From: an uncultured Anaerolineales bacterium
GTDB taxonomy: Bacteria > Planctomycetota > Phycisphaerae > FEN-1346
Length of the DNA stretch: 64,000 nucleotides
Assembly: GCA_964526295.1 (NCBI GenBank)
Contig: CAZGKW010000013.1
Location: 31,468-95,467, forward strand
Direction: 5' to 3'
Numbering within the stretch: position 1 is the first letter of the stretch; the number at the start of each line of letters is the position of its first letter. The notes under the pieces were generated by a model. The model was not told the DNA's origin. It saw nothing but the letters and a program-made list of their open reading frames with translations, and ran no database searches. This document shows positions 5,365-36,238 of the stretch, piece by piece. The position numbers were made by a program, and so were the translations under genes.

Positions 5365-5379
5365 CAAAAGGAGACCCCT

Positions 5380-8452: not shown

Positions 8453-8473
8453 ACCGGGAAAAATGAGCGAGGA

Positions 8474-12093: not shown

Positions 12094-12140
12094 GCTTGTC
12101 TACCGGCCGCCCCCACGCGGCCCGAGCAGAGGACCACCGG

Positions 12141-17378: not shown

Positions 17379-18803
17379 CTATTCCGACGGCAGCAGGTCG
17401 ATGGGCTCGCCCGCCTCGAACGCCCGCATGACCTTCTCGGCGGCGTCGCGCGTGGAGATGACGGGGTAGCGCGGCGGGTCCGTGACGCCCCGCTTCGCCA
17501 GGAGCCGGGCCACCAGGAGCCTCACCTGCTGGGCCCCGTTGGTCGCATCGCCGAGGATTCGCATCGACTCCTGGGCCGAGTGGAAGCCCATCCCGTTGTT
17601 CGAGCCGATGAAGTCCCAGCGGAACTGGGCGTGACGGAGCATCCGGCGGGCCTCGGCCAGCTCCTCGTCTCCGACGCCCGCCTGCATCGCCGCCGCCACG
17701 TCGAAGTGGGCCTTCACCAGGGCGTCCTCGGTCTGGAGCGTGGCGTTCTCGACCTTGTCCTGGATGCCATAGACGCGGGTGCGGACCTCCTCCTCGCTCC
17801 ACCGGTGGCACACCGCGCAGCTCTTGGCGATGTTCAGCAAGGGGCTGCGGACGTGGTGGTCGGTGAACTTGACGCCGCCCTCGGTCCGGTAGGGCATGTG
17901 GCAGTCGGCACAGGACACGTCGCGATAGCTGTGGATGCCCGTCGACCACAGCTCGTAGTCCGGGTGCTGGGCCTTGACGATCGGCGTCTTCGAGATGGCG
18001 TGGGTGAAGTCCGAGAAGTCGTACGAATCATAGTAGTCGATGATCTCGTCGATCCGGAGCCCGTTCTTCCAGGGGAACGTCAGGTAGGTCTTGTCCTTGA
18101 AGTAGTACTCGACGTGGCACTGAGCGCAGACGAGCGACCGCATCTCCTGATGGTCGGCCTGGTCGACGTCCCGACCCATGGCCTCGAAGGCCTCCCGAAG
18201 CGCCGGCCGCGTGATCCGCAGGTTCATCGTCTTGGGGTCGTGGCAGTCCTGGCAGCCGATCGAGTGGGTGATCTCGTCCGCCAGGTCCATGAACGGCGTC
18301 TCGTAGAACGCCGCCACGCCGAGCCGGTCCATCATCCGCGGCACGTCGGTGCTTTTGCAGGTCCAGCAGGTGGCGGGCGTCGCCGGGCCCACGCGCTTCG
18401 TGGCCGTCACGTCGCGGATCGAGTACCCGTGGCCCCGGGCCTGCTGGTAGTCTTTGCTGAAGCTGTAGCCGGTCCAGAGGATGACCAGCCGGGGGTCTTC
18501 GTCGAGGTAGTCCCTGGGGAACGCGCCCCCGTAGCGGGTCCGGGTGTCGGTGATGCGCGTCTCGAGGAAGGTCTCGTATTCGCGGGGATAGTTCTCGCCC
18601 CAGACGGCGTTATCGGGCTCCCACCGGTCGATGGGCTTCAGGACGAGGGCCGGCCGCTGGGCCTCCCAGCGTCGCTCCATGATCGAGACGGCCAGCATCC
18701 CGAGCAGCGCAACGACCCCCGCCGCCAGGATGAAGACCACCGGCCCGACCCAGCGGGGGGCTCGGCTGCTGTGGGACGGCTGTTCAGACGGCTCAGGGCC
18801 CAT
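17379..18803 (-). CDS. nrfA: Pentahaem cytochrome c nitrite reductase (ammonia-forming) NrfA
   Basis: It has the CWTCK (CxxCK haem 1) motif plus four CxxCH motifs. An N-terminal TM anchor is present. Confidence 0.9.
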   Translation of the reverse strand: MGPEPSEQPSHSSRAPRWVGPVVFILAAGVVALLGMLAVSIMERRWEAQRPALVLKPIDRWEPDNAVWGENYPREYETFLETRITDTRTRYGGAFPRDYLDEDPRLVILWTGYSFSKDYQQARGHGYSIRDVTATKRVGPATPATCWTCKSTDVPRMMDRLGVAAFYETPFMDLADEITHSIGCQDCHDPKTMNLRITRPALREAFEAMGRDVDQADHQEMRSLVCAQCHVEYYFKDKTYLTFPWKNGLRIDEIIDYYDSYDFSDFTHAISKTPIVKAQHPDYELWSTGIHSYRDVSCADCHMPYRTEGGVKFTDHHVRSPLLNIAKSCAVCHRWSEEEVRTRVYGIQDKVENATLQTEDALVKAHFDVAAAMQAGVGDEELAEARRMLRHAQFRWDFIGSNNGMGFHSAQESMRILGDATNGAQQVRLLVARLLAKRGVTDPPRYPVISTRDAAEKVMRAFEAGEPIDLLPSE

Positions 18804-19383
18804 CGGGCGCTCCTTCCTTCAGCCAGTCCAGCCCGGCCGACGGAAGCTCCGGCCGACGGACGTGGGGCGATGAGGACAGGCTCCGGGCCCGCCCGTGGAC
18901 CTCCTGGTGGCAGTCCCAGCAGGTCCGCTCCTCGGCTTCCGCCAGCCGGACCATGGTGAGCTGGTCCAGGTGGCACCGGACGCAGTTCGCCTGGACCACC
19001 GGCACGGCCTCCTCCGAGAGGCGCAGGACCTGGGGCTCGAGGCGGAACGTGAACACATAGGAATGCTTCATCCCATCGTACGCCTTGAACGCCCACGCCG
19101 CCACGGGGTTCGCGTGCGGCACGTGACAGTCGTTGCACACGGCGTCGCGGGCGTGGCTGCCCCGCTGCCACGTCGCGTACGAGTTCATCATGACGTGACA
19201 GTTGATGCAGGTCTCGGGGGCGTCGGAGAGGTAAGAGGTGGCGTTGGCGATCCGGGCGACCACGACGGCCGCACCCGCTGCCGCTCCCAGCAGGGCGAAG
19301 ATACCCAGCCGCGCGCCGCGGCCCAGGGGAGCCAGCGTCAGCCGGTCCCCGGATCGCCGCCCGGCTGTCGTCGAGCCTGCCAT
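18793..19383 (-). CDS. nrfH: Tetrahaem NapC/NirT-family quinol dehydrogenase NrfH
   Basis: It has four CxxCH motifs (CINCH, CNDCH, CVRCH, CWDCH) and an N-terminal TM helix. It lies directly upstream of nrfA. Confidence 0.85.
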   Translation of the reverse strand: MAGSTTAGRRSGDRLTLAPLGRGARLGIFALLGAAAGAAVVVARIANATSYLSDAPETCINCHVMMNSYATWQRGSHARDAVCNDCHVPHANPVAAWAFKAYDGMKHSYVFTFRLEPQVLRLSEEAVPVVQANCVRCHLDQLTMVRLAEAEERTCWDCHQEVHGRARSLSSSPHVRRPELPSAGLDWLKEGAPDGP

Positions 19384-19387
19384 GAGC

Positions 19388-20470
19388 TCAATTCTCGGAT
19401 GCGCCCGACGGCCTTGTCAAGCGGTCCCGCAATTCGTCCTCGGTGTTGACGTTGATCCAGGCACCGCGAAGGCGCTGCGGCGGCTCCGGCGTGAGGACCT
19501 TCGGATGGCCCGCCAGGCGCGACGGTGTGAACCGCCCCGCCGCAGCCAACTCCTCCAGGAGCAGCCGGCCCCGGAGGTCGTAGTGCGCAAGGAGCGGCTC
19601 CGCCGTGCGGCGCCCGGACAGGCGCGGCAGCGTGGCCCAGACGCCCGGCCGGCGGGTATCGAGCAGCCACTCGAGCGCCACGGGCCCCATCTCGGGCAGG
19701 TCGCAAGCGGCCATGAGCCACGTCGAGCCCGGTGCCCAGCGCATCGCCGCCAGGAGCCCGGCCATCGGCCCGTCGACGCCCGGCGCGTCCGGAAGCCTCT
19801 CCGATGCGGTCAGCCCGGGCGGCAGGTCCCCGACGCCCAGGACCACGACGCGCTCCACCTTGCTTCCGAGCACCTCCATCGTCCGTTCGAGCCACGTCCG
19901 ACCGCCCGTCTCGATCAGGTGCTTGGGACGGCCCATGCGTGTGCTCCGGCCGCCGATCAACACGCCGCCATAGACCGGCGGACGCCGCCAGACTTCCGGC
20001 AGCCAACCGTCGAGGGTATCAAGGACGGCCTCGACCCGGTCGGCATCGCGTCGGAGCGTCGCCACGACCGGGCCGATCTCGGGGGGCGCCGCGGATTCGC
20101 CTTCGCCCAGGAGCCAGACCTTCGGCCAGCCCAGGGGCTTGCGGCCCTCGACCAGCACCAGGTCGTACCGCCGGCCCAGCTCGATCAGGCCGAGCGGCAT
20201 CCCCGGGCGGCCGGCATGCCCTTGGCGGCCGGCGGGATGCGTCCGGGCGAAGCCCTGCTCCTCCGAGCCGATGAACACGTCCGCTCCCGTGCGAAAGAAG
20301 CGGTCGCTGTCCTTTCCGAGGCGGTCGACGTCGAGATGCCCGGCGCCGGGCTTGGCCACGGCGACCGCCAGCCCGCGGCCGGCGAACCGGGAAGCGACGG
20401 CCTCGATGACGGTGGTCTTGCCGGAATCGTGGTGGCCGAAGATGCCGAAGACGGGCAGGTCAGCGAGCAT
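19388..20470 (-). CDS. mobA: MobB::MobA fusion. MobB is the GTP-binding MGD-biosynthesis protein and MobA is the molybdenum cofactor guanylyltransferase.
   Basis: The N-terminal GHHDSGKTT is the MobB P-loop. The C-terminal LIGGRSTRMG...K is MobA. Confidence 0.8.
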   Translation of the reverse strand: MLADLPVFGIFGHHDSGKTTVIEAVASRFAGRGLAVAVAKPGAGHLDVDRLGKDSDRFFRTGADVFIGSEEQGFARTHPAGRQGHAGRPGMPLGLIELGRRYDLVLVEGRKPLGWPKVWLLGEGESAAPPEIGPVVATLRRDADRVEAVLDTLDGWLPEVWRRPPVYGGVLIGGRSTRMGRPKHLIETGGRTWLERTMEVLGSKVERVVVLGVGDLPPGLTASERLPDAPGVDGPMAGLLAAMRWAPGSTWLMAACDLPEMGPVALEWLLDTRRPGVWATLPRLSGRRTAEPLLAHYDLRGRLLLEELAAAGRFTPSRLAGHPKVLTPEPPQRLRGAWINVNTEDELRDRLTRPSGASEN

Positions 20471-21449
20471 GCCCGCCCTCCGCCGGGCTCGACCGGGCCG
20501 GCGCGGCAGGTCGCCCGCACTCGCTCGGATCGCCCCGGAGCTTCGCCAGGCCGTGCCCGAGGGCCGGCAGGACGGCCTCCAGGTTCTCGACGGCCCCCCG
20601 CTCCGAGCCGGGCAGGTTCAGGATGAGCGCCGAACCGCGGATGCCCGACGAGCCGCGCGACAGCATGGCGTGCGGCGTCTTGGCCAGCGACGCCGCCCGC
20701 ATCGCCTCGTCCAGGCCGGGCGTCGGCCGATCCAGGACCTGACGGGTGGCCTCCGGGGTCACGTCGCGGGGGGCGAAGCCCGTGCCCCCCACCGCCGCCA
20801 CGAGGTCGATACTGTGCCCGTCGGCATAGTGCCGGAGCCGGTCGGCAATCCGGTCGACCTCGTCGGGCAAGACCTCCGTGCAGTAGACGTGGGCGCCGAG
20901 ATCGTCTTCGAGCCGCCGGGCGACGGCCGGGCCGGCCGTGTCGGCCGCCTCGCCTCGCGAGCAGCGGTCGCTGATCGTCAGGACGACCGCCTGGAACCGA
21001 TCGCGCTCCACGAGTTTCAGGACCGCCGCTTCGTCGCCCGGCCGGACCGTCCCGCCGCTTTCGACCCGGGCGAACAGGCCCAGCCGCGGCATGATGCAGT
21101 CGCCCGTCAGGCGGCCGATGGCACACGGCGCGTGACAGACCTTGCCGATCTGGGTGATGGAGAGGACCACGTCTCGGCCCAGCCGGAGCCGCGTTCCGAG
21201 CCCCAGCGCCGAGAGTTCGATGCCTGAGAGGACGACGTTCTCAGCGAACGCCCCCGGCGTCAGGTCCGGCAGGCCGGCCTCGCGGACCGCCTGGATGTCT
21301 TCGTCGGCGAGGAGGCTGACCTGGCGGTGCCAGGGGCCGGCGTGGGCGTCGCCTATGATGCCGTGGTCGGGGCGGAAGACGGCCGCCTCCACAGGGCGCT
21401 TCTGGACGCCGGTGACCTCGCTCGTGCAGAGGGCCTCAGCCCTGGCCAT
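20460..21449 (-). CDS. MOSC-domain::MogA/MoaB fusion. The second domain is a molybdopterin adenylyltransferase-like domain.
   Basis: The N-terminal ~150 aa carries a conserved Cys (SITQIGKVCH) of MOSC type. The C-terminal half has the MogA/MoaB GGTG motif. Confidence 0.65.
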   Translation of the reverse strand: MARAEALCTSEVTGVQKRPVEAAVFRPDHGIIGDAHAGPWHRQVSLLADEDIQAVREAGLPDLTPGAFAENVVLSGIELSALGLGTRLRLGRDVVLSITQIGKVCHAPCAIGRLTGDCIMPRLGLFARVESGGTVRPGDEAAVLKLVERDRFQAVVLTISDRCSRGEAADTAGPAVARRLEDDLGAHVYCTEVLPDEVDRIADRLRHYADGHSIDLVAAVGGTGFAPRDVTPEATRQVLDRPTPGLDEAMRAASLAKTPHAMLSRGSSGIRGSALILNLPGSERGAVENLEAVLPALGHGLAKLRGDPSECGRPAAPARSSPAEGGHAR

Positions 21450-21939
21450 GCCCGCCCTCCTCGCGGACCCAATGGCCCGACTTGCCGCCCTCCTTCTCGA
21501 GGAGCCGGACCTGGCTGATCTCGACGCCCGGCCCGGCCGACTTCACCATGTCGTAGACCGTCAGGGCCGCCACCGACGCCGCCACCATCGCCTCCATCTC
21601 GACCCCCGTGCGGGCCTCCGTCGCGACCCGGGCCACGATGTGGACGCGGCCGCCGGAGAGCGTCGTGTCGCAATCGACGGCGTCGAGCGTCAGCGTGTGG
21701 CACAGGGGTATGAGGGTGGCGGTGTGCTTGGCGGCGGTGATGCCGGCGAGGCGGGCCGTGTCGAGGACATTGCCCTTGGCCATGCCGCCGTGCCTTCGGA
21801 TCCGTTCCTCGATATCCGAGCCGATGGTGATCCAGGCCTCCGCGACGGCGCGGCGCCTCGTCACGGGTTTGCCTCCGACGTTGACCATTCGGGCCTCGCC
21901 GCCGGGCGCCAGGTGGTTCAGGCCGGACGATTCGCTCAT
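21436..21939 (-). CDS. moaC: Cyclic pyranopterin monophosphate synthase MoaC
   Basis: It is 167 aa with MoaC-typical conserved blocks (LIPLCH..., GVEMEAM). Confidence 0.85.
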   Translation of the reverse strand: MSESSGLNHLAPGGEARMVNVGGKPVTRRRAVAEAWITIGSDIEERIRRHGGMAKGNVLDTARLAGITAAKHTATLIPLCHTLTLDAVDCDTTLSGGRVHIVARVATEARTGVEMEAMVAASVAALTVYDMVKSAGPGVEISQVRLLEKEGGKSGHWVREEGGHGQG

Positions 21940-22023
21940 CTCTCACCCCCAGTGGAAAGGTGCGGTCGGTACCCCGTCCCCAGCCGCACTCATGATCACA
22001 CCCCGGCGGGTGGGGACTTCCGT

Positions 22024-28766: not shown

Positions 28767-29642
28767 TCAGCCGCGGCCCGTCTCGCGGCGGACCGCCTCG
28801 CGGTAGGCCTCGGCCAAACGGCGCCAGACGGGGCCCGGTCGGCCCTCACCGATCGGGCGCTGCTCGACACGGCCGACAGGCAGCAGCTCCATGATCGAGT
28901 TCGTCAGAAACACCTCGTCGGCGTCCAGCAAATCGTGGACGGTCAACGACCGCTGCTCGGCCGGCACACCGACCTCGGCGGCCAGCTCCAGGACGGCCGC
29001 CCGCGTCACGCCCGGCAGGAGGCCGTCCTCGACCGGCGGCGTCAGGAGGCGGCCGTCGAGCACGAGGAACACGTTCGAGACGGCCCCCTCGGCCAGGCGG
29101 TTCTTCGTGTTGAACCGGATGGCCTCGGTCGCGCGGGCCCGGCGGGCCTCGCGCAGCGCCAGCAGGTTCGCCATGTACCCGGTCGTCTTGTGGAACGTCG
29201 TCGGGTCGGTCTCGTTGATGCGGACCTCGCTGGCGACGACCGTCGCGCCGCGCTCGTACGCTGCGGCCGGGTAAGGGACCATCGGGCCGGCCGTGACGAC
29301 AAGCGTAGCCGGAGGGACGGCCTCATCGTCGACGGCGGCCGTCAGCCGACCGCGGCTGGCCGTGATGCGGACCCGGGCGTCGGGCACGCCGTTCGTCTCG
29401 ACGAGACGGGCGACGGTCCCGGCGATCTTCTCGTCGCTCTCGCGGACGAAGATGCGGAGCGCCTCGCCGCTCTCGCGGAGCCGCCGGAGGTGGGCCTCGA
29501 GGCGGAACGGCCTCCCGTCGTAGGTCCGAAGCGTCTCGAAAAGGCCGGCCCCGAGGAGGAAGCCGGCATCGTCGGCCGCGACGGTCGCTTCGTCGGCCGG
29601 AAGGAACCGCCCGGCCACATAGACCTCGTCGCTTCCTGCCAT
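28767..29642 (-). CDS. pabC: Class IV aminotransferase-fold enzyme, probably aminodeoxychorismate lyase
   Basis: It is a 291-aa fold-type IV PLP enzyme. It lies immediately downstream of a PabB-like gene. Confidence 0.6.
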   Translation of the reverse strand: MAGSDEVYVAGRFLPADEATVAADDAGFLLGAGLFETLRTYDGRPFRLEAHLRRLRESGEALRIFVRESDEKIAGTVARLVETNGVPDARVRITASRGRLTAAVDDEAVPPATLVVTAGPMVPYPAAAYERGATVVASEVRINETDPTTFHKTTGYMANLLALREARRARATEAIRFNTKNRLAEGAVSNVFLVLDGRLLTPPVEDGLLPGVTRAAVLELAAEVGVPAEQRSLTVHDLLDADEVFLTNSIMELLPVGRVEQRPIGEGRPGPVWRRLAEAYREAVRRETGRG

Positions 29643-29672
29643 GGATGACCTCCGGGTGACGCCAGGAGCGCG

Positions 29673-31124
29673 TTACGGCGTGAGGCCGAAGGCGGCCAGC
29701 ATGGCGCGGGCCTTGTCGGCGGTCTCGTCGAACTCGGCCGCCGGGTCCGAGTCGGCCACGATGCCCCCGCCGACCTGCATGTGGACCCGCCCCCCGGCGG
29801 CCAGCAGCGTCCGAATGGCGATGTTGAGGGCACATCGTCCGGCCGGCTCGCCCGGCGATGGGGGCGCGATGTACCCCACCGCCCCGGTGTAGACGCTCCG
29901 GCGGGTCGGCTCCAGCTCGGCGATGATCTGCATCGCACGGACCTTCGGGGCCCCCGTGATCGAGCCGCCCGGGAACGTCGCCTTCAGCAGGTCGACGACG
30001 TCGCGGTCGGGGTGCAGCCGGCCCTCGACGGTCGCCACCGTATGATAGACCGCCTCGTAGGCCTCGAGGGTCCGCGGCTCGGTGACCCGGACCGACCCGT
30101 AAGAGGCGACGCGCCCGAGGTCGTTCCGCTCGAGGTCGACGATCATGACGAGTTCGGCCCGGTCCTTGGCGGAGACGTCGAGGTCGGCCCGCATGCGGCG
30201 ATTGAACGAAGCGTCGGCGGGCCGGCGAGGCCGCGTGCCCTTGATCGGCCGCGTGATAATCCGCCCGCCCGCCAGGTCGAGGAACAGCTCCGGGCTGCTC
30301 GAGAGGACCGCCCGGTCGGGCGCCACGCCGACGTAGGCCGCGTAGGGAGCGGGGTTCGCACGCCGGAGGGCCTCGTAGAGCGCCGGCGGCGCGGGAGCGG
30401 ACGCACCGGCCATCGCGATCGTGAAGCGGCGGCTCAGATTCACCTGGAAAATGTCGCCGGCGGCGATGTACTCGCGTGCCGCCGCCACCGCCTCCAGGTA
30501 ACCGGCGCGGGTGAAGTTGCACGCGACGACGGGCCGCTCGGGAAACGTCGTCTCACCCGGGCGCTCCGGCGCCGGGTCGGCAAGGGCGGCCTCGAGGGTC
30601 TCGCAGGCCGGGCCGTCGGCGCCGATGATCGTCGCGCTGCGCCGCCGATGCTCCAGCACCAGGACCGCGTCGTAGAGGCCGAACCAGAGCTCCGGCAGCG
30701 GTACGTCGCGCTGCCGCGCCAGGGCGGCTTTCGGCTCCACGTGGACCCCGAGGTCGTAGGCCAAGTAGCCGTAGAGCCCCGGCCCGTACGGCGGGCTTCC
30801 GACGTCCGCCGCCTCGTCCTCGACGCCCGTCGAGCGCAGCACCTCGCGGAGGGCCTCGAAGGGGCGGCACCCAAGCTCTTGCACGGTCCGGACGCCGGGG
30901 TCGAGCAGCCGCCCCGTCCCGTGCTCGAACACGAACGTCGCCGAGGGCTCGGCCGTCAGGACGCTCCACCGGGCCAGCCGGGCCGGACCGCCGGCACTGT
31001 CGAGCCAGACCGGCCCCCGCCGCTGGGCCAGGCGGCGGAAGACGCCGGCCACGTTCTCCGGCCACGGCACGCTGCGGACGGACCGGCGCAGGGCGTGTCG
31101 CGGGATGGTCGGCGTGCGGGTCAT
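29673..31124 (-). CDS. pabB: Aminodeoxychorismate synthase component I (chorismate-binding enzyme family)
   Basis: The C-terminal chorismate-binding domain is present (GGSITGAPK...GAVGY). There is no glutaminase domain. The ATG at 31124 overlaps the purN stop (ATGA). Confidence 0.75.
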   Translation of the reverse strand: MTRTPTIPRHALRRSVRSVPWPENVAGVFRRLAQRRGPVWLDSAGGPARLARWSVLTAEPSATFVFEHGTGRLLDPGVRTVQELGCRPFEALREVLRSTGVEDEAADVGSPPYGPGLYGYLAYDLGVHVEPKAALARQRDVPLPELWFGLYDAVLVLEHRRRSATIIGADGPACETLEAALADPAPERPGETTFPERPVVACNFTRAGYLEAVAAAREYIAAGDIFQVNLSRRFTIAMAGASAPAPPALYEALRRANPAPYAAYVGVAPDRAVLSSSPELFLDLAGGRIITRPIKGTRPRRPADASFNRRMRADLDVSAKDRAELVMIVDLERNDLGRVASYGSVRVTEPRTLEAYEAVYHTVATVEGRLHPDRDVVDLLKATFPGGSITGAPKVRAMQIIAELEPTRRSVYTGAVGYIAPPSPGEPAGRCALNIAIRTLLAAGGRVHMQVGGGIVADSDPAAEFDETADKARAMLAAFGLTP

Positions 31125-31762
31125 GGGCGGCGGTACTTCGGGGCGTCGACGTGGACGGTCCGGCCCTCGATGCGGAGCCGTCCCTCGGCGAACAGGCGGA
31201 TCGCCTCCGGATACGCGATGCACTCCTCGCGGAACACCCGGGCCGCCAGCTCGTCGGGCGTGTCCTTGGCATAGGCCGGCACGGTCCGCTGGAGGACGAT
31301 CGGCCCCTCGTCGTAGGCGTTGTCGACGAAGTGGACGGTACAGCCGGAGACCTTGCACCCCCGCGCGAGGACCGCCTCGTGAACGTGGTGCCCGTACATG
31401 CCCTTCCCGCCGAAGGACGGCAGCAGGGCCGGATGGATGTTCATCACGCGGCCGAGATAGCGGTCGGGTAAGGTCCAGTGGGAAAGGAACCCGGCCAGGC
31501 AAGTGAGGTCCGGCTCGGCCTCGTCGAGGACCGCGTCTATCGCCGCTGAGAAGGCCTCGGTGGTGTCGAAGTCGCGGCGGCGGACGAGGTGCGTCGGGAT
31601 GCCGGCCTCGCGGGCGATCTCGATGCCGCGGATACCCGGCCGGGACGCGATGACGAGGACCACCTCGGCCGCGAGGCGGTCCTCGGCGATGTGCTGGAGG
31701 ATGTTCTCGAGCGTCCGCCCGCCACCCGACAGCAGGACGCCGATACGGAGCGGCTGGGTCAT
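31121..31762 (-). CDS. purN: Phosphoribosylglycinamide formyltransferase
   Basis: It is 213 aa with PurN motifs (IGVLLSGGGRTL; NIHPALLP). Confidence 0.85.
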   Translation of the reverse strand: MTQPLRIGVLLSGGGRTLENILQHIAEDRLAAEVVLVIASRPGIRGIEIAREAGIPTHLVRRRDFDTTEAFSAAIDAVLDEAEPDLTCLAGFLSHWTLPDRYLGRVMNIHPALLPSFGGKGMYGHHVHEAVLARGCKVSGCTVHFVDNAYDEGPIVLQRTVPAYAKDTPDELAARVFREECIAYPEAIRLFAEGRLRIEGRTVHVDAPKYRRP

Positions 31763-31855
31763 TCGATGCCCTTCCCCCGGACCGGCTGGAGTGTACGCTT
31801 CGGCCCGAGAGGGGTCAACCCGCGCCCCTGACGGGCGGGCCCCGGCAAGCCCGCC

Positions 31856-34150
31856 TCAGAGGCCGCCGCGGTGCTGGATCGAATCGAGATAGCCCACGGC
31901 GTTGGGGCCCAGCTCGGCGGCGTTCGCTTCGTCCGTGTCGATGTGCATGTCGAGGCGGAAGTCGGGGTGGACCCGGACGCAGACGTCGCCGAAGATGAGC
32001 GACCGCTCGCCGGGCACGCGGATGCGGACGATGTCGCGGTCGCGGACGGCGAACTCCATGGCGTCTTCCGGCAACATGTGAATGTGCCGCATGGCACAGA
32101 TCACGCCTCGCTCCAAACGCACCTGGCCTGCGGGCCCCTCCAGGACGATGGCCGGCGTGCCGTCCAGGTCGCCCGAGAGGCGGATCGGGGCGTCGATGCC
32201 CAGCTTGAACTCTTCGGTCCGGGAGATCTCGACCTGGCTCTCCGGCCGCTCGGGCCCCAGGACGCGGACCCGCTCGATGCGGCCCTTCGGCCCGACCAGC
32301 GTGACGGCCTCCCGGCAGGCGAACTGGCCCGGCTGGGTCAGGTCGGCGTGCCAGGTCAGCGTGTGGCCCGGCCCGAAGAGGGCCTCGACGTGCTCGGCCG
32401 TCAGGTGAACGTGATGGGCCGACGTGCCGATCGGGATCGACCGTTCCTTCCGCCGCATGACGGCCGTGACGCGGGCGTGGGAGAGGGCCTGGACGGCGTG
32501 GAGGGCGACGGTCCGCTGCTCGTCGCTGCCGACCACGAAGATGCGGGCCCGCGACTGAGGGGCGGAGATCTCCGCCGTGTGGGCCGCCTCGACCTGGACC
32601 GACCGGTTGCGTCCCTCGTCCAGGACGATGCCCATCCAATCGAGGCCCTGGCAGATGCGGGCCCGGACGCCGGGGCTGTTCTCGCCGACGCCGCCGGTGA
32701 AGACGATGGCGTCGGCCCCTCCGAGGAGGCCGATGTAGGCGCTCAGGTGCTTCCGCGCCCGGAGGCAGAAGACCTGGAGCGCGAGCAGGGCCATGGGGTT
32801 GCCCCGGTTGGCCTCCTCGATCACGCGGATGACGTCGCCCGAGACGCACGAGAGGCCGAACAGGCCCGACTCGGTGAACAGCCGCTCGTACAGCTCGTCG
32901 GGGGGAATGCCGCGCTCCCGCACCAGATGCAGGACGAGGCCGGGGTCGAGGTCGCCCGGCCGGGTGGCCATGACGAGGCCCTCGAGCGGCGTGAAGCCCA
33001 TCGTCGTGTCGACGCACCGGCCGTGGTTGATCGCCGCCAGCGACGCCCCCTGCCCGAGGTGGCACGTGACGAACCGCAAGGCGTCGAACCCCGCGCCCAT
33101 GAACGCGGCGGCCGTGCGGGCCGCCCCCTCGTGCGAGATGCCGTGGAAGCCGAACCGACGCAGCTCCGGATCGTGGGCCAGGTCGGGCGGCAGGGCGTAG
33201 CGGCAGGCCGCCTCCGGCATCGTCCGGTGGAACGCCGTGTCGAAGACGGCCACCTGCGGCACGCCGGGTGCGAGCCCCTCGCACGCCTCAATGCCCCGGA
33301 GGTTGTACGGGTTGTCCTGGGGTGCCAGGGCCGACAGCTCCCGGATCCGCTCCTTCGTCTCCGGTGCGACCATCGCCGGCCCGTTGAACTCCGTGCCGCC
33401 GTGACGGACCATGTGGCCGACGGCCGACAGGTCGGATGGCGATCCAAGCAGCGGCTCGGGCCCGGAGGTCAGGGCGGCGAGGGCCGCTCCGAGGGCCGCC
33501 TCGTGGTCGGCCCGGCCGAGAGGACGCTGCCCCTCGCCTTCCGGGCCGTGGTAGGTGTGGACGGCCTCGCCGTCGGCGAAGCCCCCGATCCGGCCCCAAG
33601 CGAGCGCCGATTCGGACGTCGTGTCGAAGTAGGCGTACCGGACGTCGTCGCGTCGACACGTGACGGCCAGCAGCCGCATCGGCTCGGTGGCGCCGAGTGC
33701 GTAGCGGACCGCCGCCGCCGGCGCCGGCGCGGAAGGCTCCGAGTGCGGGGTCAGGCGGCGCGCGATCAGCTTCGTCAGAAACTGGATGGCCCGGCGGTTC
33801 ATCGCAATGAGAGGGCTGATCGCCTCCTGATAGAAGACGACCGCCTCGGACTCGACGAGCGCGACGACCGACGCGTTCGTGGGGTCGCCGGTCAGCATGC
33901 TCATCTCGCCGAAGCACTCGCCGGGCTCGATGGTCCCGATCCGTTCCCGCATGGCCGTGCCATAGCCTCGCACGGCTTCCAGGCGCCCCGCCGTCAGGAC
34001 GCCGAACACCTCGCCGGGGTTGTCGCCGTGGATGCAGACGTCGCCCGCCGCGTAGCGGACGGCCGTGCCGAGTCGGACCGCCTCGGCCAGCGCCTCGGGC
34101 GCGAACGTTTCGAACAGGGGGTGAGACTGGAGTTGATGGAGCACGTCCAT
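31856..34150 (-). CDS. Tri-domain fusion: a cyclic-nucleotide-binding domain, acetate/propionate kinase and a PduL/EutD-type phosphate acyltransferase
   Basis: Residues ~10-120 form a cNMP-binding fold (GECFGEMSMLTG). Residues ~290-560 carry acetate-kinase motifs (VAVFDTAFH; GFHGISH). The C-terminal ~200 aa are two PduL-type repeats with His-rich metal sites (SAHHVHL; MRHIHM). Confidence 0.7.
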   Translation of the reverse strand: MDVLHQLQSHPLFETFAPEALAEAVRLGTAVRYAAGDVCIHGDNPGEVFGVLTAGRLEAVRGYGTAMRERIGTIEPGECFGEMSMLTGDPTNASVVALVESEAVVFYQEAISPLIAMNRRAIQFLTKLIARRLTPHSEPSAPAPAAAVRYALGATEPMRLLAVTCRRDDVRYAYFDTTSESALAWGRIGGFADGEAVHTYHGPEGEGQRPLGRADHEAALGAALAALTSGPEPLLGSPSDLSAVGHMVRHGGTEFNGPAMVAPETKERIRELSALAPQDNPYNLRGIEACEGLAPGVPQVAVFDTAFHRTMPEAACRYALPPDLAHDPELRRFGFHGISHEGAARTAAAFMGAGFDALRFVTCHLGQGASLAAINHGRCVDTTMGFTPLEGLVMATRPGDLDPGLVLHLVRERGIPPDELYERLFTESGLFGLSCVSGDVIRVIEEANRGNPMALLALQVFCLRARKHLSAYIGLLGGADAIVFTGGVGENSPGVRARICQGLDWMGIVLDEGRNRSVQVEAAHTAEISAPQSRARIFVVGSDEQRTVALHAVQALSHARVTAVMRRKERSIPIGTSAHHVHLTAEHVEALFGPGHTLTWHADLTQPGQFACREAVTLVGPKGRIERVRVLGPERPESQVEISRTEEFKLGIDAPIRLSGDLDGTPAIVLEGPAGQVRLERGVICAMRHIHMLPEDAMEFAVRDRDIVRIRVPGERSLIFGDVCVRVHPDFRLDMHIDTDEANAAELGPNAVGYLDSIQHRGGL

Positions 34151-34274
34151 GGCGGTTCCTCCAGCGGCACGGGGAAGCCGGCCCGTGACGATAGCAGAGC
34201 GCGCCAGGGGTGTAAAGCGGGGCCCCGGCCGTCGGAGGCCGGGGCGGGGTCGGCGTCAGTCGTCCCGGCTGGGC

Positions 34275-34667
34275 CTACTCCGCCTCGGCCGTCACCCGCT
34301 GGACGACCCGCTTGAACGTGTCGGGGTCGATGGGCTTCTCGACGTAGGCGTCGGGTTCCTTGCCGAGGAACTCGCCCACGTCCTCGGCGGAGAACTGGAT
34401 GCCGACCTTCTCGGCGACGCCCGTCAGCATGATGACCTTGGTGGCCCGGAGGTCGGGGTCCTTGATGACCTCGGTGAAGACGTCGAAGCCGCTCTTGTTG
34501 GGCATCTGAACGTCGAGGACCATCAGGTCGGGCTTGAGGGACCTGGCCTTCTCGAGTCCGATCTCGCCGTCCTCGGCCTCGGCGATGTCCCATCCGTCGG
34601 GTTCGAGGATGGCCCGGACGAACTCGCGGGCCTCGTACTCATCGTCAACAATCAATGCTTTCTTCAT
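34275..34667 (-). CDS. Single-domain response regulator (CheY-like receiver)
   Basis: It is 130 aa with the DD..D..K receiver signature (LIVDDE...LMVLDVQMP...K). Confidence 0.85.
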   Translation of the reverse strand: MKKALIVDDEYEAREFVRAILEPDGWDIAEAEDGEIGLEKARSLKPDLMVLDVQMPNKSGFDVFTEVIKDPDLRATKVIMLTGVAEKVGIQFSAEDVGEFLGKEPDAYVEKPIDPDTFKRVVQRVTAEAE

Positions 34668-34704: not shown

Positions 34705-35991
34705 TCAGCCCGACGCCTCCTGGTCCGGAGGCCGGACCGGCAGGAGCAGCGCGAACTCCGTTCCCACGCCGACCGTCGAGCCGACGCGGATGGTCCCGCC
34801 GTGCTCCTGGACGATCTTTTTCGTCACGGCCAGCCCCAGGCCGGTCCCTTTCCCCCCCTTGGTCGAGAAGAACGGGTCGAATACCTTGTCCCGTGTCTCG
34901 GGCCCCATGCCGCACCCGTTGTCGCGGACCCGGATGGTGAACTGCCCGTCCCCGTCTCCGGGCTCGACGACCAGCTCGACACGGGCGTCCTCGCGGTCGG
35001 CACAGGCGTCGACGGCGTTGCCGGCCAAATTGATCAGGCACCGCCGGATGCCGGACTCGTCGACACAGACGGTCTCGATTTCGCTGCGGGTCTCGAGCCG
35101 GACGTTCTTGCCGCGGGCCTGCTCCTCCAGGAGGTCGACGATGTCCTTGCACAGGTCGCCGATAGCGCAGTCCTGGTACAGGGGCTTGCGTTTCTTGGTG
35201 TAGGCGAGCATGTCGAGGACAATGTCGCTGAGTATCTGCATGTTGCGCTTGACCATCGCCCATCCGCGTTTCAGGGCGTCCGGCGTCTCGTCCGACAGGT
35301 TCTGGTCGATGATGTAGGAGCCGGCCCGGAGGCCGTTCAGGATGTTCTTGACGCAATGGGCCATGCCGGCCACGGTCTGGCCGACCGTGGCCAAGCGTTC
35401 GGCCAGGAGCCGGGCCTCGTGCTCCTCGGCGTTGTGGATGGCCACGGCGATGAGACTGGCTACGGCCCGGGCCAGCTCGAGGTCGTGGTCATCGAACGAC
35501 TGGCCGTCGCGGCGGTTGAGGACCTGCACGACGCCCACCGGCTTGCCTTTGGCCACCAGGGGCGCCGAGAGGATCGATCGGGTGCGAAACCCCGTCCGCC
35601 GGTCGTAATCGCGATTGAAGCGCTCGTCCTGGTACGCATCCGGTATGAGGAGGGCTTCCTGGTGGTGGGCGACCCATCCGGCGATGCTGTTGTCGTCGAT
35701 GGGGAGGCTCTGCTTGGCCAGCGAAGCGGTCTGGGGGCCCTCGACGAGGTGAAACGTCAGGCAGTCGGCCCCGGCCGGCTGGAGGAGGATCGAGCAGGCC
35801 TCGGCGTTCATCGCCTCCTGGGCCGCGTTCATCGCCGATCGCAGGACCGAGTCCAGGTCCAGCTCGCCCGCGACCATCTGGCTGACCTCGGACAGGGCCT
35901 CCAGGGCCCGGCGGCACTCGGGCGTCGAGGCGGCCTCGGCCGCTCGTTCGGAGGGTCCTGACCCGCCCGCGTGTGGGTCCCGGCGTGCCAC
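34705..35991 (-). CDS. GAF-domain sensor histidine kinase
   Basis: It has a GAF domain, HisKA (MAHCVKN) and HATPase_c (GTGLGL) domains. The GTG start at 35991 was chosen for a strong GGAAGGAGG-like RBS (GGGGAGGTG). The upstream ORF extension is low complexity. Confidence 0.7.
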   Translation of the reverse strand: MARRDPHAGGSGPSERAAEAASTPECRRALEALSEVSQMVAGELDLDSVLRSAMNAAQEAMNAEACSILLQPAGADCLTFHLVEGPQTASLAKQSLPIDDNSIAGWVAHHQEALLIPDAYQDERFNRDYDRRTGFRTRSILSAPLVAKGKPVGVVQVLNRRDGQSFDDHDLELARAVASLIAVAIHNAEEHEARLLAERLATVGQTVAGMAHCVKNILNGLRAGSYIIDQNLSDETPDALKRGWAMVKRNMQILSDIVLDMLAYTKKRKPLYQDCAIGDLCKDIVDLLEEQARGKNVRLETRSEIETVCVDESGIRRCLINLAGNAVDACADREDARVELVVEPGDGDGQFTIRVRDNGCGMGPETRDKVFDPFFSTKGGKGTGLGLAVTKKIVQEHGGTIRVGSTVGVGTEFALLLPVRPPDQEASG

Positions 35992-36238
35992 TCGGGCACC
36001 TCCCCGCCAAGTGAAGCCGGACGACTGGACGCCCGGCCGGCTCAGTCCCCGACGTGAAAAGGGACCGTTGCATAGAATAGGTGCCGCGAGGGGGTTGTCA
36101 ATCGGTTTTCGCGAGGACCTCTCGTGCCGGCAGCCGATGCCCGTCGGCTCCGGGACGCGAAAAGCCTTCCCTCGGGGCCCCCTGACGAGTATCCTTGGCG
36201 GCCGTCTGCTGGCACCTTGCCATACGCCGGAGCCGACC

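What the first reader, a model, noticed from the sequence alone, without database searches (positions are those of the whole stretch)
31856..34150. cNMP-binding::acetate kinase::PduL tri-domain fusion, a single-polypeptide acetyl-CoA-to-acetate-plus-ATP module with a putative allosteric sensor
A cyclic-nucleotide-binding domain is fused N-terminally to a complete acetate kinase. It is followed by a complete PduL-type phosphotransacylase with two His-rich repeats. Ack and Pta/PduL are normally separate. Fusing them with a cNMP sensor implies nucleotide-gated substrate-level phosphorylation, or acetate activation feeding acetyl-CoA to the adjacent Wood-Ljungdahl enzymes. A stand-alone Pta-N-terminal regulatory domain is encoded in the acs cluster (7349-8452). 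The classical Pta architecture therefore appears split and rewired here.
Basis: partly seen in the sequence, partly recalled or inferred. Interest (0 to 1): 0.65.

Follow-up and report, generated by a model that had tools for sequence, protein, structure and literature searches.

The report
Sensor–acetate kinase–PduL fusion enzyme
One 764-residue protein joins a sensor domain to the two enzymes that convert acetyl-CoA to acetate plus ATP, and in its relatives the gene sits next to carbon-fixation (Wood-Ljungdahl) genes; however, the sensor lacks the residue needed to bind cyclic nucleotides and the kinase half has an unusually rewritten ATP-phosphate loop.

Summary
Window 31856-34150 (-) is one 764-aa ORF with three domains: a CNB fold (1-133), a full-length acetate kinase (158-567) and a PduL phosphotransacylase (568-764). 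The architecture recurs in more than 120 protein clusters from several phyla, so it is not an assembly artefact.

- **Link to Wood-Ljungdahl genes: supported.** 8 of 31 non-redundant loci of this clade have CODH/ACS, MeTr, stand-alone PtaN or NuoEF-FDH genes within 10 kb, against 0 of 46 other loci.
- **cNMP gating: not supported.** The phosphate-binding Arg is Thr91 here and is absent in all 64 aligned relatives.
- **Sensor target.** CNB-PduL proteins without Ack exist, so the sensor's constant partner is PduL.
- **PduL domain: intact.** All six zinc ligands and Arg103 are invariant.
- **Ack domain: atypical.** It keeps D148, H180, R241, E384 and G331. The PHOSPHATE1 motif N-x-G-S-S-S-x-K is T-C-R-R-D-D-V-R. 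R91 has moved two residues along. H123, N211, G239 and R285 are replaced. The derived residues are themselves conserved.

Ack-PduL fusion was mentioned in one sentence in 2016. The tri-domain form and the remodelled kinase site are undescribed. I rate it a new variant of a known kind, of moderate interest.

The parts
31856..34150 (-). Whole gene: CNB-fold sensor :: acetate kinase :: PduL, 764 aa plus stop codon
   Evidence: ORF; Pfam, NCBIfam and PDB matches; identical protein on two other assemblies
33752..34150 (-). CNB-fold (CRP-like) sensor domain, residues 1-133: beta-barrel plus C-helix 119-133
   Evidence: Pfam PF00027; PDB matches to CRP/GlxR-type domains; AF2 secondary structure
33860..33913 (-). 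Non-canonical phosphate-binding cassette FGEMSMLTGDPTNASVVA (residues 80-97). E82 is kept; T91 replaces the cNMP-phosphate Arg
   Evidence: Alignments to cAMP/cGMP-binding structures; 0 of 64 relatives have Arg (T44, S18, G1, A1); wider relatives have T/S/A/I
33680..33751 (-). Flexible Pro/Ala-rich linker, residues 134-157
   Evidence: pLDDT below 50 at 134-146; not conserved in alignment A1
32450..33679 (-). Acetate kinase (ASKHA) domain, residues 158-567, including the C-terminal helix 544-567 that runs on into PduL
   Evidence: PF00871 and TIGR00016; alignment to 1g99 and 2iir; TM 0.95 to 1g99; D304, H336, R397, E544 and G487 invariant
33635..33664 (-). Remodelled PHOSPHATE1 hairpin VTCRRDDVRY (residues 163-172) in place of the canonical INAGSSSLKY
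   Evidence: Gapless alignment to MtACK. In the derived clade R166 is 48/48, R171 48/48 and D169 44/48. Among 96 ordinary Ack representatives G9 is 89/92 and S/T12 is 92/92. The hairpin is modelled with pLDDT above 90
33395..33415 (-). HMVRHGG (residues 246-252): the catalytic Arg91 position is Met247, and an Arg appears two residues later (R249, the V93 position)
   Evidence: Contingency in 64 sequences: R at 91 only 49, R at 93 only 13, neither 2, both 0
31859..32449 (-). PduL phosphotransacylase domain, residues 568-764, with all zinc ligands (H580, H582, E641, H689, H691, H736) and R635
   Evidence: PF06130 and PRK15070; alignment to 5cuo; ligand identities from PMC4784909; invariant in 64 of 64
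34188..34216 (-). Promoter-like site TTTACA-17-TATCGT (TG-extended), about 38 nt upstream of the ATG
   Evidence: Consensus scan: 3 sites found against 0.3 expected in shuffles. This is a consensus match only
34275..34667 (-). Single-domain response regulator (130 aa) immediately upstream
   Evidence: Pfam Response_reg; NCBIfam DivK-like. It lies upstream of the fusion in L003, L004, L112, L115, L116 and L121
34705..35991 (-). GAF-domain histidine kinase upstream of the response regulator. The start is taken from the 428-aa gene call in L001; the longest ORF runs to 36240
   Evidence: Pfam GAF + HATPase_c; gene call in L001
31121..31762 (-). purN (GAR formyltransferase, uses 10-formyl-THF) directly downstream, followed by pabB and pabC (28767-31124)
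   Evidence: Pfam; the same order occurs in L002 and L115
7349..8452 (+). Stand-alone Pta N-terminal module (AAA_26/BioD-like + DRTGG), the last gene of the acs block
   Evidence: Pfam; NCBIfam PRK05632 positions 2-372 of 708. It lies next to the fusion gene in L049 (tandem) and L101 (convergent), and in the same block in L113 and L115
1..14942 (+). Wood-Ljungdahl cluster: AcsB (cut by the window edge), AcsC, RACo, CooC-like, AcsD, MeTr, PtaN, NuoE-like, NuoF-GltD fusion, FdhA
   Evidence: Pfam; tblastn panel

Best explanation
The gene encodes a member of a conserved, uncharacterised family of sensor-Ack-PduL fusion proteins. In the Phycisphaerae/Planctomycetota-Lentisphaerae clade, to which this window belongs, the family is the acetate branch of the Wood-Ljungdahl pathway.

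Shown. The PduL domain has an intact di-zinc site, which is the site that interconverts acetyl-CoA + Pi and acetyl phosphate + CoA. It is joined to the Ack domain by a continuous helix. The Ack domain keeps the residues that act on the acyl phosphate (D148, H180, R241, E384, and a relocated R91) and the adenosine-motif Gly.

Inferred. Acetyl phosphate is handed directly between the two active sites, giving acetyl-CoA + Pi + ADP <-> acetate + CoA + ATP in one polypeptide. The direction (acetogenesis or acetate activation) is not determined.

The sensor. The N-terminal CNB-fold domain is flexibly tethered and lacks the Arg that binds the cyclic phosphate. It most likely senses a ligand other than cAMP/cGMP, identity unknown. 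Sensor-PduL proteins without Ack exist, so its conserved target is probably the PduL step. This would be analogous to the N-terminal regulatory domain of class II Pta.

The kinase. In this clade the nucleotide-phosphate side of the Ack site has been replaced by a conserved Arg/Asp arrangement (PHOSPHATE1, N211, G239, R285, H123). The kinase probably still works, but with altered kinetics or control.
For: Domain identity and completeness.

PduL: the ligands H48, H50, E109, H157, H159, H204 and R103 (defined in PMC4784909) are invariant in 64 of 64 sequences.

Ack: D304, H336, R397 and G487 are invariant and E544 is 63 of 64. R91 and position 93 are mutually exclusive Arg sites (49/13/2/0), which suggests the Arg function is retained. 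The derived residues are themselves fixed (R166 48/48, R171 48/48, D/E279 48/48), which argues against simple decay. G331-V/I332 is kept, unlike the PPi-dependent EhACK (PMC5517563).

Rigid Ack-PduL junction and floppy CNB linker.

Link to WL genes: 8 of 31 non-redundant derived-clade loci with at least 5 kb of flank carry CODH/ACS, MeTr, PtaN or NuoEF-FDH genes, against 0 of 46 other Ack-PduL loci (Fisher p = 3.7e-4). The gene orders differ between loci (tandem, convergent, divergent). L049 and the window itself add to this.

Precedent: PduL serves as the Pta of a WL acetogen (Moorella; PMC8065083). A channelling rationale for Ack-PduL fusion was proposed in PMC4784909.

CNB: no Arg in any relative. 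Arg-less CNB domains bind other ligands (PMC2246266; PMC10959531). CNB-PduL and REC-PduL architectures exist.
Against: Nine or more of the residues regarded as Ack hallmarks (PMC4390882) are changed in the window protein: N7T, S10R, S11D, S12D, K14R, R91M, V93R, L122Q and N211Q, plus G239A and R285I.

Single substitutions at N211 or G239 cost 6- to 200-fold activity in MtACK.

The Ack domain diverges 1.7 times as fast as PduL in this clade, against 1.2 times in canonical clades.

Related lineages have clearly degenerate or truncated Ack domains (Armatimonadia; P0143 and P0105).

No enzyme activity, ligand or channelling has been measured. Whether the genome has a second ack or pta gene is unknown. 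In the window itself the gene is 17 kb from the WL cluster. The loci counted in the neighbourhood test are phylogenetically related, so they are not fully independent.
Confidence: 0.55

Rival explanations
1. Regulated PduL with a non-catalytic Ack domain. The Ack domain of this clade has lost efficient ATP-linked kinase activity. It serves instead as a scaffold, a dimerisation module or an acetyl-phosphate-binding regulatory module. The protein would then be a sensor-controlled phosphotransacetylase that makes or consumes acetyl phosphate, with ATP formation, if any, left to another enzyme.
For: The PHOSPHATE1 motif is fully replaced, and N211, G239, R285 and H123 are changed. These states are essentially absent from 96 ordinary Ack representatives: S12->D 0 of 92, H123->D/E 0 of 94. 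Ack diverges faster relative to PduL. Two derived-clade members lack Arg at both position 91 and position 93. Armatimonadia relatives lose R241 and H180 but keep PduL. CNB-PduL proteins exist with Ack deleted (P0136, 60% identical CNB), and others have truncated Ack.
Against: D148, H180, R241, E384, N124 and G331 are invariant across the derived clade. The R91<->R93 swap implies selection to keep an active-site Arg. The derived residues are fixed rather than drifting. The ASKHA fold and the hairpin are modelled confidently. The opposite decay also exists (P0141: PduL ligands lost, Ack canonical), so loss is lineage-specific and not a family trend.
Confidence: 0.2
2. Neofunctionalised kinase. 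The Arg/Asp-rich PHOSPHATE1 loop and the altered acyl pocket (V93->C/R, L122->M/Q, F179->S/G/C in many members) adapt the Ack domain to a different phosphoryl partner (another NDP, Pi/PPi or polyphosphate) or to a different acyl group.
For: There is a coordinated and conserved set of substitutions on the nucleotide-phosphate side and in the acetate pocket. V93, L122 and P232 are the acetate-binding determinants, and N211 contacts the beta-phosphate (PMC4390882). One Ack with an altered phosphoryl partner is already known (EhACK; PMC5517563).
Against: The signature of the only known PPi-Ack is absent. That signature is an occluded adenosine pocket (Gln-Met instead of Gly331-Ile332) and an extended PHOSPHATE2 loop. 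Here G487-V488 is kept. The window protein itself keeps F179 and P232. The WL context predicts acetyl units. There is no direct evidence for any alternative substrate.
Confidence: 0.12
3. One reading: cAMP, cGMP or a cyclic dinucleotide binds the N-terminal domain and gates substrate-level phosphorylation.
For: The Pfam cNMP_binding match is above threshold. The FGE motif, including the ribose-contacting Glu (E82), and the beta2-beta3 Gly are conserved. A CNB-gated enzyme of acetate metabolism exists in mycobacteria (Pat), and there is a weak NCBIfam hit to it (E 1.9e-5).
Against: The Arg that neutralises and hydrogen-bonds the cyclic phosphate is Thr91 here and is never Arg in 64 of 64 relatives or in the wider set. 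The position three residues later is acidic in 55 of 64. This Arg is the key residue of the canonical PBC, and families with a non-canonical PBC bind other ligands, such as heme in CooA (PMC2246266). Trypanosomatid PKA with Thr/Asn at this position does not respond to cAMP (PMC10959531).
Confidence: 0.08
4. A microcompartment-associated PduL/PduW-type module for propanediol or ethanolamine catabolism (propionyl-CoA -> propionate + ATP).
For: PduL is classically a BMC core enzyme. The NCBIfam hits include propionate kinase and EutD models, all below their cut-offs.
Against: There is no N-terminal encapsulation peptide, because PduL is fused behind Ack. The neighbourhoods are WL, FDH and folate genes.
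Confidence: 0.02

Closest known systems
Ack-PduL multidomain proteins noted by Erbilgin et al. 2016 (PLoS Biol, PMC4784909)
   Same: The two PF06130 repeats of PduL are fused to an acetate kinase, there is no encapsulation peptide, and the fusion is proposed to channel acetyl phosphate. The two-domain form is found here in Myxococcota.
   Different: That paper gives one sentence, with no CNB domain, no genomic context and no active-site analysis. The window protein has an extra N-terminal sensor and a remodelled Ack site, whereas the Myxococcota two-domain proteins are canonical.
Pta-Ack pathway of WL acetogens with a PduL-type Pta (Moorella thermoacetica PduL1/PduL2 + AckA)
   Same: PduL-type phosphotransacetylase plus acetate kinase converts WL-derived acetyl-CoA to acetate with ATP gain (PMC8065083).
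   Different: In Moorella these are separate proteins with no sensor domain. Here there is one polypeptide and the organism is a Planctomycetota MAG.
Class II phosphotransacetylase (E. coli/Salmonella Pta: BioD-like + DRTGG N-terminal regulatory half, PTA_PTB catalytic half)
   Same: It is a phosphotransacetylase under the control of an appended regulatory domain. A homologue of its N-terminal half is encoded alone in the acs cluster and abuts the fusion gene in relatives.
   Different: The catalytic fold is PduL, not PTA_PTB. The appended sensor is a CNB fold. The PtaN module is a separate protein, and its interaction with the fusion is untested. The regulatory role of PtaN in E. coli and Salmonella is from my own knowledge and was not checked here.
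Mycobacterial protein acetyltransferase Pat (CNB domain fused to GNAT; controls acetyl-CoA synthetase)
   Same: A CNB-fold domain is fused to an enzyme of acetate/acetyl-CoA metabolism. There is a weak NCBIfam match of residues 13-133 to the Pat model (E 1.9e-5).
   Different: Pat binds cAMP (own knowledge) and regulates by protein acetylation. Here the PBC Arg is missing and the fused enzymes are catalytic pathway steps.
Non-canonical CNB domains: CooA (heme), NtcA, trypanosomatid PKA regulatory subunit (purine nucleosides)
   Same: They share the CNB fold with a PBC that lacks the phosphate-binding Arg, which implies a ligand other than cAMP/cGMP (PMC2246266; PMC10959531). TbPKAR has Thr at the same position as T91.
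   Different: The nucleoside-binding Glu of TbPKAR (the PKA A202 position) is an invariant Ser84 here. No heme-ligand pattern was identified, and the ligand is unknown.
Entamoeba histolytica PPi-dependent acetate kinase
   Same: It is an Ack with departures from the canonical ATP-binding motifs, including the N211 and G239 positions.
   Different: EhACK occludes the adenosine pocket (Gln323-Met324). This family keeps Gly-Val/Ile there and instead rewrites PHOSPHATE1.

Membership tests
Acetate/propionate kinase (PF00871, TIGR00016; ASKHA superfamily) | Full-length match to the family profile above the curated cut-off | tested here: met
   PF00871 336 bits, model positions 3-391 of 392; TIGR00016 328 bits against a cut-off of 293
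Acetate/propionate kinase (PF00871, TIGR00016; ASKHA superfamily) | ASKHA two-subdomain fold | tested here: met
   AF2 model pLDDT 86; TM 0.95 and rmsd 1.8 A to MtACK 1g99
Acetate/propionate kinase (PF00871, TIGR00016; ASKHA superfamily) | Catalytic core residues D148, H180, R241, E384 | tested here: met
   D304, H336 and R397 are invariant and E544 is 63 of 64
Acetate/propionate kinase (PF00871, TIGR00016; ASKHA superfamily) | Arg91 (transition-state and acyl-phosphate contact) | tested here: inconclusive
   Met247 occupies the aligned position, and Arg249 lies two residues later on the same strand. R91 and R93 are mutually exclusive across the family. Whether R249 reaches the site needs coordinates or an assay
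Acetate/propionate kinase (PF00871, TIGR00016; ASKHA superfamily) | PHOSPHATE1 motif N7-x-G9-S10-S11-S12-x-K14 | tested here: not met
   The sequence is T-C-R-R-D-D-V-R. The background of 96 Ack representatives keeps N 88/92, G 89/92, S/T12 92/92 and K 85/92
Acetate/propionate kinase (PF00871, TIGR00016; ASKHA superfamily) | PHOSPHATE2 Asn211, LOOP3 Gly239, LOOP4 Arg285 | tested here: not met
   Q367, A395 and I441; the roles of these residues are given in PMC4390882
Acetate/propionate kinase (PF00871, TIGR00016; ASKHA superfamily) | ADENOSINE motif Gly331-Ile/Val332 (open adenosine pocket of NTP-dependent Acks) | tested here: met
   G487-V488; G is invariant in 64 of 64; criterion from PMC5517563
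Acetate/propionate kinase (PF00871, TIGR00016; ASKHA superfamily) | Acetate pocket V93, L122, F179, P232 | tested here: not met
   R249 and Q278 are changed; F335 and P388 are kept
Acetate/propionate kinase (PF00871, TIGR00016; ASKHA superfamily) | ATP-dependent acetate phosphorylation activity | not testable with these tools
   Needs an enzyme assay
PduL phosphotransacylase (PF06130, NF011652) | Two PF06130 repeats forming the PduL fold | tested here: met
   PF06130 positions 1-175 of 176, 255 bits; NF011652 258 bits against a cut-off of 209; TM 0.94 and rmsd 1.6 A to 5cuo
PduL phosphotransacylase (PF06130, NF011652) | Di-zinc ligands His48, His50, Glu109, His157, His159, His204 and the phosphate-contacting Arg103 | tested here: met
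   H580, H582, E641, H689, H691, H736 and R635, all invariant in 64 of 64
PduL phosphotransacylase (PF06130, NF011652) | Microcompartment association (N-terminal encapsulation peptide, shell genes nearby). This is typical of the family but not universal | tested here: not met
   The PduL N-terminus is fused to Ack.
Cyclic-nucleotide-binding domain (PF00027), functional cNMP binders | CNB beta-barrel fold with FGE motif and beta2-beta3 Gly | tested here: met
   PF00027 50.6 bits against a cut-off of 27.5; F80, G81 and E82 invariant, G46 nearly invariant; structural matches to CRP/GlxR
Cyclic-nucleotide-binding domain (PF00027), functional cNMP binders | PBC arginine (PKA R209 / CAP R82) that binds the cyclic phosphate | tested here: not met
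   T91; 0 of 64 Arg; T/S/A/I in wider relatives; the criterion is in PMC2246266
Cyclic-nucleotide-binding domain (PF00027), functional cNMP binders | Measured cAMP/cGMP binding | not testable with these tools
   Needs ITC or DSF on residues 1-150
Class II Pta (for the separate protein at 7349-8452) | N-terminal BioD-like (AAA_26) + DRTGG regulatory half | tested here: met
   Pfam; NF004167 positions 2-372 of 708, E 8.7e-50
Class II Pta (for the separate protein at 7349-8452) | C-terminal PTA_PTB catalytic domain | tested here: not met
   The protein ends after DRTGG, and its score of 170 bits is far below the cut-off of 418

The most novel reading that the evidence does not exclude
The Planctomycetota/Lentisphaerae clade carries a previously unrecognised class of acetate kinase. 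In it the Ser-rich PHOSPHATE1 loop is replaced by a conserved Arg-x-x-Asp-x-Arg hairpin, together with H123->Asp/Glu and loss of N211, G239 and R285. This would give a different way of holding the transferred phosphate or a different phosphoryl partner. The kinase is hard-wired to PduL, and the whole module is gated by a CNB-fold domain that senses a metabolite other than a cyclic nucleotide. Together with the stand-alone PtaN protein and possibly the adjacent single-domain response regulator, it would act as a dedicated, regulated valve between the Wood-Ljungdahl pathway and acetate/ATP.
Probability: 0.15. Interest if true: 0.75.

Novelty: new variant of a known kind. Interest (0 to 1): 0.55.

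Why it matters
Acetyl-CoA <-> acetate + ATP is the energy-conserving exit (or the entry) of the Wood-Ljungdahl pathway. How uncultured Planctomycetota, Lentisphaerae and magnetotactic Nitrospirota run and control it is unknown, and databases label this protein simply 'acetate/propionate family kinase'.

A one-polypeptide, sensor-equipped Pta/Ack module would be a compact part for metabolic engineering. It is also a natural test case for acetyl-phosphate channelling.

The conserved rewriting of a motif treated as a hallmark of all acetate kinases gives enzymologists a natural experiment on what PHOSPHATE1 actually does.

For annotation, the practical message is that a 'cNMP_binding' hit here should not be read as cAMP/cGMP control.

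Tried and rejected
1. **Assembly or frameshift artefact: rejected.** The identical protein occurs on independent assemblies, and the architecture recurs in more than 120 clusters.
2. **Microcompartment context: rejected.** There are no shell-protein hits in the window or in about 160 loci.
3. **EhACK-like PPi kinase: no support.** The adenosine-motif Gly-Val is retained.
4. **Trypanosomatid-type nucleoside-binding CNB: not the same type.** The key Glu position is an invariant Ser.
5. **HK-RR-fusion-purN-pabB as a universally conserved operon: rejected.** It is conserved only among the closer relatives.
6. **WL association for the Myxococcota two-domain proteins, Nitrospirota, Armatimonadia and clade A tri-domain proteins: none found** within 10 kb.
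7. **Literature searches.** Searches for CNB + acetate kinase + phosphotransacetylase and for DRTGG + Wood-Ljungdahl returned nothing. The Phycisphaerae/WL/acetate kinase papers were listed but not read, and searches on phosphate propanoyltransferase turned up nothing about the fusion.
8. **AFDB fold search:** the library was unavailable.
10. **Intrinsic terminators:** none were predicted on the gene's strand around it, so the transcription unit is not defined.

Full report
**1. Observation**

The window has about 70% G+C. On the minus strand at 31856-34150 it carries a single 764-codon ORF starting with ATG.

Pfam finds three domains:
- cNMP_binding at residues 31-116 (E 1.9e-13).
- Acetate_kinase at 161-549, covering model positions 3-391 of 392 (E 2.8e-100).
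- PTAC/PduL at 573-747, covering 1-175 of 176 (E 6e-76).

NCBIfam places it above the curated cut-offs of TIGR00016 (acetate/propionate kinase) and PRK15070 (phosphate propanoyltransferase). PDB sequence searches match acetate kinases, R. palustris PduL and CRP-type CNB domains.

An AlphaFold2 model built on 64 homologues has pLDDT 86 and pTM 0.72. Its parts superpose on MtACK (TM 0.95, rmsd 1.8 A), on PduL 5cuo (TM 0.94, rmsd 1.6 A) and on CRP/GlxR sensor domains. No solved structure covers more than one domain.

The model shows a disordered linker at 134-146 between CNB and Ack. By contrast, a continuous helix (544-567) leads from Ack into PduL.

The identical protein is encoded on two independent SRA assemblies.

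**2. A conserved family, not a one-off**

A search of 5.8 billion proteins lists more than 110 clusters at 54-86% identity with the same three Pfam domains. Where they are named at all, they are called 'acetate/propionate family kinase', 'acetate kinase' or 'hypothetical protein'.

Among GTDB species representatives:
- The tri-domain form occurs in Phycisphaerae and other Planctomycetota, Victivallales/Lentisphaerae, magnetotactic Nitrospirota (including Ca. Magnetobacterium casense MYR-1), Armatimonadia and Syntrophales. One member is labelled Elusimicrobia.
- A two-domain Ack-PduL form of about 597 aa, without CNB, is common in Myxococcota.

The best genome match to the window protein is only 75% (Phycisphaerae MAGs). 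The source is therefore probably an unrepresented Phycisphaerae-like planctomycete.

An exhaustive HMMER search of 50%-identity representatives finds about a dozen tri-domain clusters and several two-domain ones before ordinary stand-alone Acks take over.

Other architectures exist:
- CNB-PduL without Ack: P0136, P0161 and P0229. The CNB of P0136 is 60% identical to the window's.
- Receiver-domain-PduL (P0258).
- PduL-Ack in reversed order (P0146).
- CNB-truncated Ack-PduL (P0143, P0105).

The constant pairing is therefore sensor plus PduL.

**3. The PduL domain is intact**

Erbilgin et al. define Zn1 ligands His48, His50 and Glu109, Zn2 ligands His157, His159 and His204, and the phosphate-contacting Arg103 (PMC4784909).

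In the alignment to 5cuo these are H580, H582, E641, H689, H691, H736 and R635. All are invariant in 64 of 64 family members and in every group examined. The one exception is a distant lineage (P0141), where PduL rather than Ack has decayed.

**4. The CNB domain is not a canonical cNMP binder**

The phosphate-binding cassette reads FGEMSMLTGDPTNASVVA. In every alignment to cAMP- or cGMP-binding structures, the Arg that binds the cyclic phosphate (P-R-x-A-T/S) aligns with Thr91.

Across 64 relatives this position is T (44), S (18), G (1) or A (1), and never R. The ribose-contacting Glu (E82) is invariant, and the position three residues after Thr91 is Asp or Glu in 55 of 64. More distant tri-domain and CNB-PduL proteins have T, S, A or I at the Arg position.

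The comparative survey of CNB domains gives the canonical PBC as FGE[LIV]AL[LIMV]x[PV]R[ANQV]. It notes that families with non-canonical PBCs bind other ligands, such as heme in CooA, and it lists no Ack or Pta fusion (PMC2246266). Trypanosomatid PKA, with Thr/Asn at this position, is cAMP-independent and binds purine nucleosides. Its key extra Glu corresponds to an invariant Ser84 here, so the analogy is only partial (PMC10959531).

The domain is best called a CNB-fold sensor of unknown ligand.

**5. The Ack domain is full-length but remodelled**

The gapless alignment to MtACK (1g99) gives the following mapping:
- MKVLVINAGSSSLKYQLID aligns with MRLLAVTCRRDDVRYAYFD, so N7->T164, G9->R166, S10->R167, S11->D168, S12->D169 and K14->R171.
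- R91->M247, V93->R249, L122->Q278 and H123->D279.
- N211->Q367, G239->A395 and R285->I441.

These positions are retained: D148 (D304), F179, H180 (H336), P232, R241 (R397), G331-I332 (G487-V488) and E384 (E544).

[quoted passage not shown] They name V93, L122 and P232 as acetate determinants. They also show that N211S/T or G239A/S substitutions lower activity 6- to 200-fold (PMC4390882).

Against a background of 96 ordinary Ack cluster representatives, the canonical states hold: N7 88/92, G9 89/92, S/T12 92/92, K14 85/92, R91 92/94, H123 94/94 and R285 84/96. The window's state is therefore genuinely unusual.

**6. The remodelling is clade-specific and conserved**

The states by group:
- Canonical: Myxococcota two-domain proteins, Syntrophales, and a tri-domain 'clade A' at about 55% identity (one member of which is labelled Elusimicrobia).
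- Intermediate: magnetotactic Nitrospirota have G9->R and N211->H and lack R285.
- Fully derived: the Planctomycetota/Lentisphaerae clade, including the window.
- Degenerate: Armatimonadia have lost even R241 and H180 while PduL stays intact.

Within the 48 derived-clade sequences, the new residues are themselves fixed:
- R166 48/48, R171 48/48 and D/E279 48/48.
- D169 44/48, S/T164 46/48 and A/S395 46/48.

Arg at position 91 and Arg at position 93 are mutually exclusive: 49 sequences have R91 only, 13 have R93 only, 2 have neither and none has both. The swap is HRVCHGG against HCVRHGG or HMVRHGG, which looks like relocation of a still-needed Arg.

The Ack domain diverges 1.7 times as fast as PduL in the derived clade and 1.9 times in Nitrospirota. 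In the canonical groups the ratio is 1.2 to 1.25.

My reading is altered, somewhat relaxed, but still real selection on the kinase site. The signature of the only known Ack with a different phosphoryl partner (EhACK: Gln-Met instead of Gly331-Ile332, and an extended PHOSPHATE2 loop) is absent (PMC5517563).

**7. Genomic context**

In the window, positions 1-14942 (+) encode AcsB (cut by the window edge), AcsC, RACo, a CooC-like ATPase, AcsD, MeTr, the AAA_26+DRTGG protein, NuoE-like, a NuoF-GltD fusion and FdhA. NrfHA and Moco biosynthesis genes follow.

The fusion gene lies 17 kb further on, on the minus strand. The local order is GAF histidine kinase, single-domain response regulator, fusion, purN, pabB, pabC-like, radical SAM. 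A promoter-like site lies 38 nt upstream of its ATG (consensus match only).

The DRTGG protein matches class II Pta over profile positions 2-372 of 708 only, so it is a stand-alone Pta N-terminal module.

In relatives of the derived clade the link to WL genes is direct and takes several different gene orders:
- L049: AcsC-RACo-CooC-AcsD-MeTr-PtaN-fusion, in tandem with a 116-bp gap.
- L101: the fusion is convergent with PtaN-MeTr-AcsD-CooC, with a 39-bp gap.
- L115: acs...PtaN-HK-RR-fusion-purN-pabB.
- L084: CooS-CooF-AcsB-AcsC-RACo runs divergently from CooC-fusion.
- L114 and L128: NuoE-NuoF/GltD(-FdhA) lies adjacent to the fusion.

Counting non-redundant loci with at least 5 kb of flank, 8 of 31 derived-clade loci carry such genes, not counting L049 and the window. 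The figure is 0 of 39 for other Ack-PduL loci and 0 of 7 for other tri-domain loci (Fisher p = 3.7e-4 for 8/31 against 0/46). The loci are related to each other, but the variety of arrangements argues against a single inherited accident.

No microcompartment shell genes were detected anywhere.

**8. Mechanism**

Shown:
- Intact PduL di-zinc chemistry.
- An intact acyl-phosphate side of Ack.
- A rigid Ack-PduL junction and a flexibly tethered Arg-less CNB domain.
- Recurrent WL neighbourhood.

Established elsewhere: PduL acts as the Pta of a WL acetogen (PMC8065083), and Pta plus Ack yields ATP from acetyl-CoA (PMC4784909).

Inferred:
- The protein carries acetyl-CoA <-> acetyl phosphate <-> acetate with hand-over of acetyl phosphate between the two sites.
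- The sensor acts chiefly on the PduL step.
- The direction of flux and the ligand are unknown.
- The CNB C-helix ends only about 25 residues before the PHOSPHATE1 hairpin, so an effect on kinase domain closure is also conceivable. This is pure inference.

The main rival is that the kinase half of this clade is catalytically weak or non-catalytic.

**9. Comparison and novelty**

Ack-PduL fusion was mentioned in one sentence in 2016. I found no description of the following:
- the CNB-Ack-PduL architecture;
- its WL linkage;
- the stand-alone PtaN in acs clusters;
- the remodelled PHOSPHATE1.

It is a new variant of known kinds (the Pta/Ack pathway, PduL, and CNB-fold sensors), not a new category.

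**10. Verdict**

- Observation: confirmed.
- Interpretation: partly supported. The fusion and the WL link hold; cNMP gating does not; the claim of a 'complete' kinase needs qualification.
- Interest: 0.55.

Noticed in passing
window 33395-33415 (residues 246-252) and alignment A1: There is an exact residue swap between two positions on one strand of the Ack domain: HRVCHGG in most derived-clade members against HCVRHGG/HMVRHGG in the window's subclade. Arg and Cys trade places, and the two Arg positions are never both occupied.
   Followed up: partly
P0136, P0161, P0229 (CNB-PduL), P0258 (receiver-PduL), P0146 (PduL-Ack), P0143 and P0105 (CNB-truncated Ack-PduL): PduL is fused to different sensor domains and in different orders. 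P0136 looks like the window protein with the Ack domain cleanly excised. A receiver-domain-PduL fusion echoes the stand-alone response regulator next to the window's gene.
   Followed up: partly
L020 and L045 (Armatimonadia), P0128; P0141: Decay is reciprocal across lineages. Armatimonadia tri-domain proteins have lost Ack residues R241 and H180 but keep PduL. P0141 has lost the PduL His ligands but keeps a canonical Ack.
   Followed up: partly
window 34275-34667 (-) and 34705-35991 (-): A GAF histidine kinase and a single-domain (output-less) response regulator sit immediately upstream of an enzyme whose intermediate, acetyl phosphate, is a known small-molecule phosphodonor for receiver domains (own knowledge). 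The pair is conserved upstream of the fusion in several relatives (L003, L004, L112, L115, L116, L121).
   Followed up: partly
window 7349-8452 (+); L049, L101, L113, L115: A stand-alone Pta N-terminal module (BioD-like + DRTGG) is the last gene of the acs block after MeTr in this clade. I found no literature on a DRTGG protein in WL clusters.
   Followed up: partly
window 8842-12093 (+): A 1083-aa fusion combines a NuoF-like FMN/NADH module with a GltD-like (Fer4_20 + pyridine-nucleotide disulfide oxidoreductase) module. It lies between a NuoE-like gene and FdhA, which suggests a multi-cofactor, possibly bifurcating, formate dehydrogenase complex. The same trio lies next to the fusion gene in L100, L114 and L128.
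   Followed up: no
window 17379-19416 (-) and 19388-21942 (-): NrfA and NrfH (cytochrome c nitrite reductase) and Moco biosynthesis genes (mobAB, moaB/MOSC, moaC) lie between the WL cluster and the fusion gene. The organism may therefore couple WL chemistry to nitrite ammonification.
   Followed up: no
L049 (CAYGWP010000309.1, labelled Anaerolineales): This contig's acs genes and fusion gene are 65-80% identical to the window's Planctomycetota-like genes. The contig is probably mis-binned.
   Followed up: no
window 31790-31818 (-) and 36074-36101 (-): There are two further sigma-70-like sites, one before purN and one inside or before the histidine kinase ORF. No terminator-like site was found on the minus strand in 28.5-36.8 kb, so the transcription units are unresolved.
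   Followed up: no
window 28767-31762 (-): purN (which uses 10-formyl-THF) and pabB/pabC (p-aminobenzoate for folate) lie directly downstream of the fusion gene. This is a folate-related set next to a WL-linked enzyme, and the order is conserved in L002 and L115.
   Followed up: partly
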